Part shown: positions 6,567-7,234 of the stretch, piece by piece
How the letters are laid out: each line of letters begins with the position of its first letter
Position numbering within the stretch: position 1 is the first letter of the stretch
Virus record (IMG/VR): IMGVR_UViG_2740892369_000029
Source of the DNA: a virus
Lineage: Duplodnaviria > Heunggongvirae > Uroviricota > Caudoviricetes
Direction: 5' to 3' (one strand)
Length of the DNA: 13,322 nt
Notes under the pieces: generated by a model
Told to the model about the DNA's origin: nothing
Database searches by the model: none
What the model saw: the letters and a program-made list of their open reading frames with translations, nothing else
Position numbers and translations under genes: made by a program

Positions 6567-7234
6567 AAACCCTTAGATAGTTCTATTGAGGCAAGTATGT
6601 TATAAATCTGCCTTATCTTTTATAGCATATAAAGATATGTATGCTATATTTTTTTTGAAGAAATTTTTCCAGAAATTACAGTAATACAAGAAATATTAAC
6701 TGGTGTGATTTTTGGATGTTTAATAAGTACAGTGTACTTATATTTTTGTAATAAAGATGAACGCGTCCTTTAGATAAACTGAAAAATATTAAGCATGTCT
6801 CATGTGGTTTTCTGAATCAAAACTCTTTTCAGTCTTTGATTTTTTGTTAAAAACAGGTTTATTGCAAGGGTGTTGTTGTGAAATGTGTTTTGGTGTCGTT
6901 GTGATTTTATGGTGATAATGTGAATTTTTATCCTTTCAAGATGGCTCCCTGGACGTTAAATACAGTGGAAATTTATATTAAGATATAAATATAACTATTG
7001 CGTTATTTAAATTATTGTCTATTACAGCTCCAGTTAATAGAGCCTGAAGTAATTTCTTAGTATTTCATCATAAGCGTTTATCTATCGTCTCTTTCTAAAT
7101 TAACCGGTCGTATTACAAGGTGCTGAATCTGATTAAGGAATGATACTTAGGGGATTATGGCTGACTTAATAATTAGATAACTGATAAATGACTATCAGGG
7201 GGATATCGTTAAGTCAGCCTTTAAAATCAAGCGA

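What the first reader, a model, noticed from the sequence alone, without database searches (positions are those of the whole stretch)
7150..7225. Nested palindrome immediately downstream of the integrase stop codon
An 11-bp perfect inverted repeat (GGCTGACTTAA ... TTAAGTCAGCC, about 7161-7170 and 7211-7221) encloses about 40 bp that themselves contain a 6-bp inverted repeat (CTGATA ... TATCAG). It is not followed by a U-run, so it is not a classic intrinsic terminator. It could be a protein-binding site (recombination directionality factor or integrase arm-type site), an RNA stability element, or a residual recombination site.
Basis: seen in the sequence. Interest (0 to 1): 0.35.

Follow-up and report, generated by a model that had tools for sequence, protein, structure and literature searches.

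The report
Stem-loop ending an island integrase transcript
The palindrome is real, but it is most likely just the hairpin that caps and protects the end of an integrase gene's messenger RNA in an E. coli genomic island, not a recombination or protein-binding site, and the integrase is a dead gene in this strain.

Summary
An 11-nt perfect inverted repeat (7159-7169 / 7209-7219) encloses a 6-7 bp inner stem. It begins 15 nt after the stop of a minus-strand integrase gene.

The integrase is a P4-type island integrase that reads away from its attachment site. The 16-nt argW core lies upstream of it, at 8600-8615. torI belongs to a separate P22-like prophage inserted in tandem, whose own integrase (IntS) lies about 42 kb away. 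The palindrome therefore sits about 1.4 kb from the core, inside the island, and its arm motif is not repeated near the core.

It is single-copy and always linked to this integrase, in about 270 E. coli genomes and four sequence variants. Related integrase genes usually carry a hairpin at the same position, often a canonical terminator.

This hairpin is stable (-23.6 kcal/mol, z = -6.5) and has no U-tract. The RNA downstream is C-rich and G-poor. That matches the stem-loops described at Rho-dependent 3' ends in E. coli.

The best reading is a 3'-end protective or weakly terminating stem-loop of the integrase mRNA (confidence about 0.5). Variation is too low to prove selection. In this window the integrase carries a nonsense mutation. 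The finding is ordinary and of low interest.

The parts
7159..7219 (-). 61-nt compound stem-loop. It has an 11-bp perfect basal stem, a weak 3-bp middle helix, a 7-bp apical stem and a UCAU loop in the integrase-sense RNA.
7159..7169 (.). Left arm of the 11-nt perfect inverted repeat (GGCTGACTTAA on the + strand).
7209..7219 (.). Right arm of the 11-nt perfect inverted repeat (TTAAGTCAGCC on the + strand).
7181..7198 (-). Apical hairpin CUGAUAG-UCAU-UUAUCAG in the integrase sense.
7235..8425 (-). P4-type (DUF4102) tyrosine integrase gene of a genomic island inserted at argW. It is a pseudogene here: Tyr222 is a stop at 7762-7760. It is intact in other E. coli strains.
7100..7158 (-). Stretch immediately 3' of the hairpin, without a U-tract and with a mild C>G excess (starts AUAAUCCCCUAAGUAUCAUUCC). 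It is conserved between the two island lineages as far as about 7115.
6847..6924 (-). CA-rich, G-poor tract (C 23, G 3 in 78 nt) about 240-310 nt downstream of the hairpin. It is a candidate Rho-utilisation region (inferred).
8600..8615 (-). 16-nt argW/KplE1-type core CTGCAGGGGACACCAT. It is the junction between the P22-like prophage (its attR) and the island (its attL), and it lies upstream of the integrase.
8689..8889 (-). torI, the directionality-factor gene of the neighbouring P22-like prophage. It is not part of the island integrase module.

Best explanation
The palindrome is transcribed as the 3' end of the island integrase mRNA (minus strand) and folds into a stable compound stem-loop 15 nt after the stop codon. 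It has no U-tract, so RNA polymerase probably does not terminate efficiently at it. Transcription would instead run on into the AT-rich, C>G, untranslated region downstream and be stopped there by Rho. 3'-to-5' exonucleases (PNPase, RNase II) would then trim the RNA back to the base of the hairpin, which blocks them and sets a defined, protected 3' end.

What is shown: the position, the stability, the missing U-tract, the C>G composition downstream, the strict linkage to the integrase, and hairpins at the equivalent position in related loci. What is inferred: that it is transcribed, that Rho is involved, and that it blocks exonucleases.

In this window the integrase carries a nonsense mutation, so the element is probably a functionless passenger in this strain.
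For: Position and stability:
- The hairpin starts 15 nt after the integrase stop. In the integrase-sense RNA it folds at -23.6 kcal/mol, z = -6.5, and none of 200 shuffles did as well.
- Its tail has a T-score of 0.74, against 3.0-5.2 for the terminators behind related integrase genes.

Downstream composition:
- The downstream minus-strand RNA is C>G: C/G is 1.33 in the first 78 nt and 1.51 over 592 nt, with a 23:3 peak at 6924-6847. The ratio is 0.95 within the integrase gene.
- No ORF of 50 aa or more follows.
- Dar & Sorek 2018 (PMC6061677) found that the 3' ends of Rho-dependent E. coli transcripts sit immediately after stable stem-loops that lack U-rich tails, are followed by a mild C-over-G excess, and protect against PNPase and RNase II.

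Related loci:
- Among 78 loci with 58-74% identical integrases, about a third have a canonical hairpin-plus-T-run within 130 nt of the stop. These include the closest relatives L006-L012. Many others have a strong hairpin without a T tail.
- The prophage intS in the same genome also has a hairpin shortly after its stop.

Linkage and variation:
- The hairpin occurs in about 268 E. coli genomes, which is every genome with a full copy of this integrase (266). This includes a second lineage with different cargo, in which homology ends about 45 nt beyond the hairpin.
- In that lineage the two stem substitutions both give G.U pairs in the integrase-sense RNA and A.C mismatches in the antisense. The other six changes fall in internal loops.
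Against: - There is no transcript or 3'-end data for this locus.
- Only four sequence variants exist. The stem-versus-loop difference in substitutions is not significant (2/36 vs 6/25, p = 0.054). Stem divergence (5.6%) is not significantly below the four-fold-site divergence of the integrase gene (10.7%).
- Variant V2 stabilises the antisense fold more than the sense fold, so the strand is not settled.
- The hairpin is 61 nt long with large internal loops. That is bigger than the typical terminator-like stem-loops Dar & Sorek described.
- An AAA run upstream gives the plus strand a short UUU tail. Dar & Sorek found that such A-tracts are typical of intrinsic terminators, not of Rho-dependent ends.
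- One strain carries an IS5 inside the left arm next to an intact integrase ORF.
Confidence: 0.5

Rival explanations
1. The palindrome is a relic or a chance structure with no current function. It could be a decayed intrinsic terminator that has lost its U-tract, carried along with the integrase gene.
For: An 11-nt perfect inverted repeat somewhere in a 13-kb window is not rare: 19% of shuffles have one. Variation shows no significant selection on the stems. The closest integrase relatives have proper terminators at this position while this one lacks the T-run. An IS5 insertion in one arm is tolerated. The integrase is a pseudogene in this window.
Against: The nested fold is far more stable than shuffled sequence (z = -6.5). 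It sits exactly where a 3'-end structure is expected: only 0.4% of shuffles place such a repeat in the 200 nt after the stop. Both stems are kept in all four variants, while the internal loops take 6 of the 8 changes in the diverged lineage.
Confidence: 0.25
2. It acts on the plus strand, or in both directions, as a weak intrinsic terminator. It would stop transcripts that start in the promoter-rich AT-rich region (5970-7150) from running antisense into the integrase gene.
For: On the plus strand the hairpin (-24.1 kcal/mol, z = -4.8) is followed directly by UUUAAAAU. Its T-tail score is 2.52, against 0.74 in the integrase sense. Variant V2 strengthens the plus-strand fold to -26.7 kcal/mol. 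Several sigma-70-like sites lie on the plus strand upstream, for example at 6950-6979.
Against: The tail has only three consecutive U and scores below the canonical terminators in related loci. The count of promoter-like sites is not above the shuffle expectation: 9 found against a mean of 10.6. The diverged lineage V3 weakens the plus-strand fold to -16.8 kcal/mol through A.C mismatches while keeping the minus-strand fold at -19.7. V3 also lacks the AT-rich region altogether.
Confidence: 0.15
3. It is a DNA-level site: a binding site for the integrase arm domain or for TorI (the directionality factor), a residual attachment site, or another protein-bound palindrome.
For: The arms are perfectly symmetrical at 11 bp. 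As single-stranded DNA the region still folds better than shuffles (-11.8 kcal/mol, z = -5.2). It is adjacent to a recombinase gene.
Against: - The attachment core lies upstream of the integrase at 8600-8615, about 1.4 kb away. In this tRNA-then-integrase arrangement the characterised IntS and TorI sites of KplE1 lie in the att regions next to the core (PMC2951348).
- The arm motif has no further copy with two or fewer mismatches near the core.
- torI belongs to a different element.
- The palindrome shows no similarity to the core, and a 39-bp spacer is atypical for a dimer operator.
- It is not a repeated element. Scans of the viral and metagenome collections for the arm pattern returned only this same locus plus unrelated chance hairpins.
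- No target-site duplication flanks it.
Confidence: 0.07

Closest known systems
Protective stem-loops at the 3' ends of Rho-dependent E. coli transcripts (Dar & Sorek 2018, PMC6061677)
   Same: It is a stable stem-loop just downstream of a stop codon. It has no U-rich tail. The sequence beyond it is C-over-G and untranslated.
   Different: This hairpin is longer (61 nt, compound, with large internal loops). It has a short A-run upstream. The 3' end, Rho dependence and exonuclease protection are unmeasured here.
Canonical intrinsic terminators directly after related P4-type integrase genes (for example loci L006-L012)
   Same: Same position relative to the integrase stop, and comparable or lower folding energy.
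   Different: It has no U-tract in the integrase sense (T-tail score 0.74 against 3-5) and no sequence homology to those terminators.
Lambda sib/tI retroregulator downstream of int
   Same: A hairpin in the 3' untranslated region of an integrase gene that could influence the fate of the integrase mRNA.
   Different: In lambda, sib lies beyond attP and is separated from int by integration. It acts through RNase III on antiterminated PL transcripts. Here the attachment site is upstream of the integrase, so the hairpin stays linked in both the integrated and excised states. No antitermination system is associated with it, and RNase III cleavage is untested.
KplE1 / HK620 argW recombination module (IntS, TorI, 16-nt core; Panis et al. 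2010, PMC2951348)
   Same: Same tRNA target, identical 16-nt core, and the same tRNA-then-integrase orientation, with the integrase promoter region next to the core.
   Different: The island integrase is only 49% identical to IntS. The KplE1 regulatory sites lie upstream of the integrase, whereas the palindrome lies downstream and is not part of that module.

Membership tests
Intrinsic (Rho-independent) terminator | Stable G+C-containing stem-loop | tested here: met
   -23.6 kcal/mol (minus strand) and -24.1 kcal/mol (plus strand), with z = -6.5 and -4.8. It is, however, a 61-nt compound hairpin and not a simple 5-14 bp stem.
Intrinsic (Rho-independent) terminator | U-tract immediately 3' of the stem on the transcribed strand | tested here: not met
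   The integrase-sense tail is AUAAUCCCCUAA, T-score 0.74. The plus-strand tail is UUUAAAAUC, T-score 2.52, which is borderline. Canonical examples score 3.0-5.2. The consensus scan did not call it.
Rho-dependent 3'-end protective stem-loop (Dar & Sorek 2018) | Stable stem-loop not followed by a U-rich sequence, downstream of a gene | tested here: met
   description of the class
Rho-dependent 3'-end protective stem-loop (Dar & Sorek 2018) | C-over-G enrichment (rut-like) downstream of the stem-loop | tested here: met
   C/G is 1.33 in the first 78 nt, 1.51 over 592 nt, and 23:3 at 6924-6847, against 0.95 in the integrase gene.
Rho-dependent 3'-end protective stem-loop (Dar & Sorek 2018) | Mapped steady-state RNA 3' end at the base of the stem, with read-through on Rho inhibition and trimming by PNPase/RNase II | not testable with these tools
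   No transcriptome or 3'-end data are available for this locus.
Lambda sib-type retroregulator | Site lies beyond the attachment site, so that integration uncouples it from int | tested here: not met
   The core is upstream of the integrase at 8600-8615, and the hairpin is downstream, inside the island.
Lambda sib-type retroregulator | RNase III cleavage of the read-through hairpin | not testable with these tools
   The 11-bp, 3-bp and 7-bp helices are interrupted by internal loops, and cleavage cannot be predicted reliably.
Integrase arm-type / RDF binding sites of an att region | Located in the arms flanking the core, within a few hundred bp | tested here: not met
   It is about 1.4 kb from the core, separated from it by the whole integrase gene. 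The KplE1 sites are in attL/attR.
Integrase arm-type / RDF binding sites of an att region | The motif recurs several times in the att region | tested here: not met
   No copy with two or fewer mismatches lies between 8425 and 8690. The only nearby match is inside the torI coding sequence at 8788.
Repeated palindromic element (REP/BIME, MITE) | Many copies per genome, or copies in unrelated contexts | tested here: not met
   The median is one place per genome in 270 E. coli genomes. Scans of the viral and metagenome collections returned only the same locus plus unrelated hairpins.
Integron attC site | RYYYAAC and GTTRRRY at the outer ends of an imperfect palindrome, next to an integron integrase | tested here: not met
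   The AAC/GTT lie at the inner ends of the arms. In the window the 3' copy reads ATT. The integrase is P4-type.

The most novel reading that the evidence does not exclude
The hairpin could be a dedicated post-transcriptional control element of a tRNA-then-integrase island integrase. For example, it could be an RNase III or other nuclease target that couples integrase mRNA fate to read-through from the tandem prophage or from the attachment-site promoter. That would be a sib-like retroregulator in an arrangement where none has been described. Alternatively it could be a DNA hairpin recognised by an unknown island or mobilisation protein.
Probability: 0.05. Interest if true: 0.5.

Novelty: new member of a known kind. 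Interest (0 to 1): 0.13.

Why it matters
It matters little in itself. If confirmed, it is one more example of a U-less stem-loop that defines and protects the 3' end of a horizontally acquired gene.

The useful outcome is the corrected anatomy of the locus:
- Two elements, a P22-like prophage and a P4-type-integrase island, sit in tandem at argW.
- The integrase next to torI is not TorI's partner.
- The attachment core is upstream of the integrase, not downstream.
- The island integrase is dead in this O26-type strain.

This prevents the palindrome from being annotated as an att or arm site.

Tried and rejected
- tRNA and Rfam scans of the window, both at gathering thresholds and at a permissive E-value over 5900-7400, found nothing relevant.
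- The phage database has no match to 7000-7240. The plasmid database matches only the IS3 end.
- Covariation analysis was not possible. The protein search showed nothing between 99% and about 75% identity. The 80 related loci contain the palindrome only in L005, a contig with a 100% identical integrase. Only four variants exist, and the substitution statistics are not significant.
- MITE or repeated element: rejected, because it is single-copy and has no target-site duplication.
- attC-like site: considered because of ACTTAAC...GTTAAGT in the diverged variant. Rejected because the geometry and the integrase type are wrong.
- dif-like or IHF-like motifs: checked by eye only, with no convincing match.
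- Small ORFs overlapping the hairpin (28 aa on the plus strand, 24 aa on the minus strand) were judged not credible.
- PapI-like gene in the AT-rich region: no ORF there resembles PapI by eye. No profile search was run.
- A second scan of the viral collection with the apical 18-mer gave one new hit, which is an unrelated coding sequence.

Full report
**1. Observation**

The palindrome exists. The arms GGCTGACTTAA / TTAAGTCAGCC lie at 7159-7169 and 7209-7219. They are 11 nt, perfectly complementary, with 39 nt between them. The inner repeat CTGATA/TATCAG lies at 7181-7186 / 7193-7198.

The integrase is on the minus strand (7235-8425). Its TAA stop is at 7237-7235, and the hairpin begins 15 nt later in the integrase sense.

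As RNA, the 79-nt region folds into one compound hairpin: an 11-bp basal stem, a weak 3-bp helix, and a 7-bp apical stem with a UCAU loop. The energy is -23.6 kcal/mol in the integrase sense (z = -6.5) and -24.1 kcal/mol in the antisense (z = -4.8). None of 200 shuffles did as well on either strand. As single-stranded DNA it folds at -11.8 kcal/mol, z = -5.2.

An 11-nt perfect inverted repeat with a spacer of 60 nt or less is not rare somewhere in a 13-kb window. The mean is 0.25 per dinucleotide shuffle, and 19% of shuffles have at least one. The window has a second one at 3671/3697. In a pre-specified 200 nt after the stop codon, only 0.4% of shuffles have one.

**2. Context**

The window is 100% identical to chromosomes of E. 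coli O26:H11 and related strains. Annotation of NZ_CP031922, taken in the integrase (minus-strand) direction, gives this order:
- yfdC
- tRNA-Arg (argW)
- intS
- a P22-like prophage of about 42 kb (tailspike, P22 capsid, ERF, kil and others), ending with torI
- the 16-nt core
- a second integrase, which is the one in the finding
- the palindrome
- 1.26 kb of ORF-free DNA at 26-31% G+C
- a 51-aa PapB/FocB fragment
- a frameshifted IS3
- an HsdR-N-domain gene and further cargo

In strains without the prophage (WEC, CDE2901, ARS-C301), the second integrase lies directly next to argW. The DNA upstream of it in the window is identical to that argW-integrase spacer as far as CTGCAGGGGACACCA. The full 16-mer CTGCAGGGGACACCAT lies at 8600-8615. 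It is exactly the KplE1 core reported by Panis et al. 2010 (PMC2951348).

The integrase carries the DUF4102 arm-binding domain, a SAM-like domain and the PF00589 catalytic domain, so it is P4-type. It is 49% identical to the prophage IntS. It stands in the tRNA-then-integrase, same-orientation arrangement ('STI' in PMC2951348). In that arrangement the integrase promoter and the characterised Int and TorI sites lie in attL, upstream of the gene.

Three consequences follow:
- torI and this integrase belong to different elements.
- The attachment site is upstream of the integrase, about 1.4 kb from the palindrome.
- The palindrome lies inside the island.

In the window the integrase is a pseudogene, with Tyr222 changed to a stop at 7762-7760.

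**3. Distribution and variation**

The 141 nt around the palindrome occur in 270 of 5426 complete E. coli genomes. The median is one copy per genome, and none is on a plasmid. A full-length copy of this integrase occurs in 266 genomes. The two are therefore strictly linked.

Four variants were found:
- V1: the window.
- V2: G to A at 7207, in the weak middle helix.
- V3: a second island lineage with different cargo. Its integrase is 96.5% identical at the nucleotide level. Homology ends about 45 nt beyond the hairpin, at an IS fragment.
- V4: a change in a loop.

V3 differs from V1 at 8 positions in the hairpin. Two are in stems. Both are C-to-U changes that give G.U pairs in the integrase-sense RNA and A.C mismatches in the antisense. 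The other six are in internal loops.

This pattern fits a conserved RNA structure read in the integrase sense, but it is not statistically decisive:
- Stem versus loop substitutions are 2/36 against 6/25, p = 0.054.
- Stem divergence of 5.6% is not significantly below the 10.7% at four-fold sites of the integrase gene.
- V2 favours the antisense fold.

One strain has an IS5 inserted in the left arm next to an intact integrase ORF.

No intermediate relatives exist. The protein search shows a jump from 99% to about 75% identity. The 80 loci encoding 58-74% identical integrases do not contain this palindrome, apart from L005, a contig whose integrase is 100% identical to this one.

Pattern scans for the arms with any 20-50 nt interior were run on the viral and metagenome collections. 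They returned only this same locus plus unrelated chance hairpins. The palindrome is therefore not a mobile or repeated palindromic element.

**4. What occupies this position elsewhere**

In the 78 related loci with enough downstream sequence, about a third have a canonical hairpin-plus-T-run within 130 nt of the integrase stop. These include the closest relatives L006-L012. Many others have a strong hairpin without a T tail. The prophage intS in the same genome also has a hairpin about 25 nt after its stop. A 3'-end hairpin is thus the norm for this gene family, and the palindrome is its positional equivalent.

**5. Mechanism**

In the integrase sense the tail is AUAAUCCCCUAAGUA. Its T-tail score is 0.74, against 3.0-5.2 for the canonical terminators in related loci and 4.72 for a terminator-like site at 6566-6546 in the window. 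It is therefore not a canonical intrinsic terminator.

The minus-strand RNA downstream is untranslated, with no ORF of 50 aa or more. It is also C-rich and G-poor: C/G is 1.33 in the first 78 nt, 1.51 over 592 nt, and 23:3 in the CA-rich tract at 6924-6847. Within the integrase gene the ratio is 0.95.

Dar & Sorek (PMC6061677) showed that steady-state 3' ends of Rho-dependent E. coli transcripts lie immediately after stable stem-loops that lack U-rich tails. A mild C-over-G excess follows these stem-loops, and they protect the RNA from PNPase and RNase II. The palindrome fits every sequence-level criterion of that class. The functional criteria cannot be tested here.

My best explanation, at confidence about 0.5, is a 3'-end protective or weakly terminating stem-loop of the integrase mRNA, with Rho terminating transcription downstream.

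**6. Rivals**

- **Relic or chance structure without function (0.25).** Selection is unproven, the IS5 insertion is tolerated, and the gene is dead in this window.
- **Weak plus-strand or bidirectional terminator that shields the integrase from convergent transcription out of the AT-rich region (0.15).** The plus strand has a UUUAAAAU tail (T-score 2.52), and V2 strengthens that fold. However, V3 weakens it, and promoter-like sites are not enriched.
The palindrome is on the wrong side of the gene, 1.4 kb from the core. The motif is not repeated near the core. torI belongs to another element.

The remaining probability covers readings not considered here, including the sib-like retroregulator idea given as the novel case.

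**7. Verdict**

The feature is an ordinary, previously undescribed member of a known kind. Interest is low (0.13).

Noticed in passing
window 8426-8889, and NZ_CP031922 1523706-1567201 (L001, L117): Two integrative elements sit in tandem at argW: a P22-like prophage of about 42 kb (intS ... torI) and a P4-type-integrase island. The 16-nt KplE1-type core at 8600-8615 separates them. torI and the adjacent integrase are not a pair.
   Followed up: yes
window 7760-7762 (minus strand): The island integrase has a single nonsense mutation (Tyr222 to stop) in this O26-type lineage. The gene is intact in WEC, CDE2901 and ARS-C301.
   Followed up: yes
window 6546-6566 (minus strand): A canonical terminator-like site, GCCTCCAC-ATATA-GTGGAGGC followed by TTTTTTT, lies about 670 nt downstream of the integrase stop with no ORF in front of it. 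It could end a long integrase 3' UTR or an unannotated small RNA. The only Rfam match is weak and far below threshold (Arrc14, E = 0.02).
   Followed up: partly
window 6847-6924 (minus strand): A striking CA-rich, G-poor tract (C 23, G 3 in 78 nt: CACAUUAUCACCAUAAAAUCACAACGACACCAAAACACAUUUCACAACAACACCC...). It looks like a Rho-utilisation site.
   Followed up: partly
window 5970-7150: About 1.2 kb of ORF-free DNA at 26-31% G+C lies upstream of a truncated 51-aa PapB/FocB-family gene (5814-5969, minus strand), which is cut by a frameshifted IS3. It is probably the regulatory region of a lost fimbrial operon. Within E. coli genomes it occurs only in this island, and the plasmid collection has no relative of it.
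   Followed up: partly
L003 (NZ_CP170179) 4192-5076, equivalent to window ~7165: In strain CDE2901-yvys an IS5 is inserted inside the left arm of the palindrome, at the CTTAA sequence. The integrase ORF next to it is intact.
   Followed up: partly
window 3671-3681 / 3697-3707: A second 11-nt perfect inverted repeat (CCGACAGTTCC, 15-nt spacer) lies inside the 786-aa HsdR-N-domain ORF (2141-4501).
   Followed up: no
L005 (DYYI01000083.1) and L045 (NZ_JBQPOM010000063.1): A contig labelled as an Aliicoccus persicus MAG carries the E. coli integrase at 100% protein identity, with the identical palindrome downstream. A 'Vagococcus sp.' contig carries an enterobacterial-type integrase at 62%. Both look like contamination or mis-binning in public assemblies.
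   Followed up: no
L001 12934-14090, compared with window ~9730: Strain FWSEC0001 has an IS600 copy in the prophage early-left region, splitting a DUF4752 gene. The window lacks it, so this insertion is polymorphic among otherwise identical strains.
   Followed up: no
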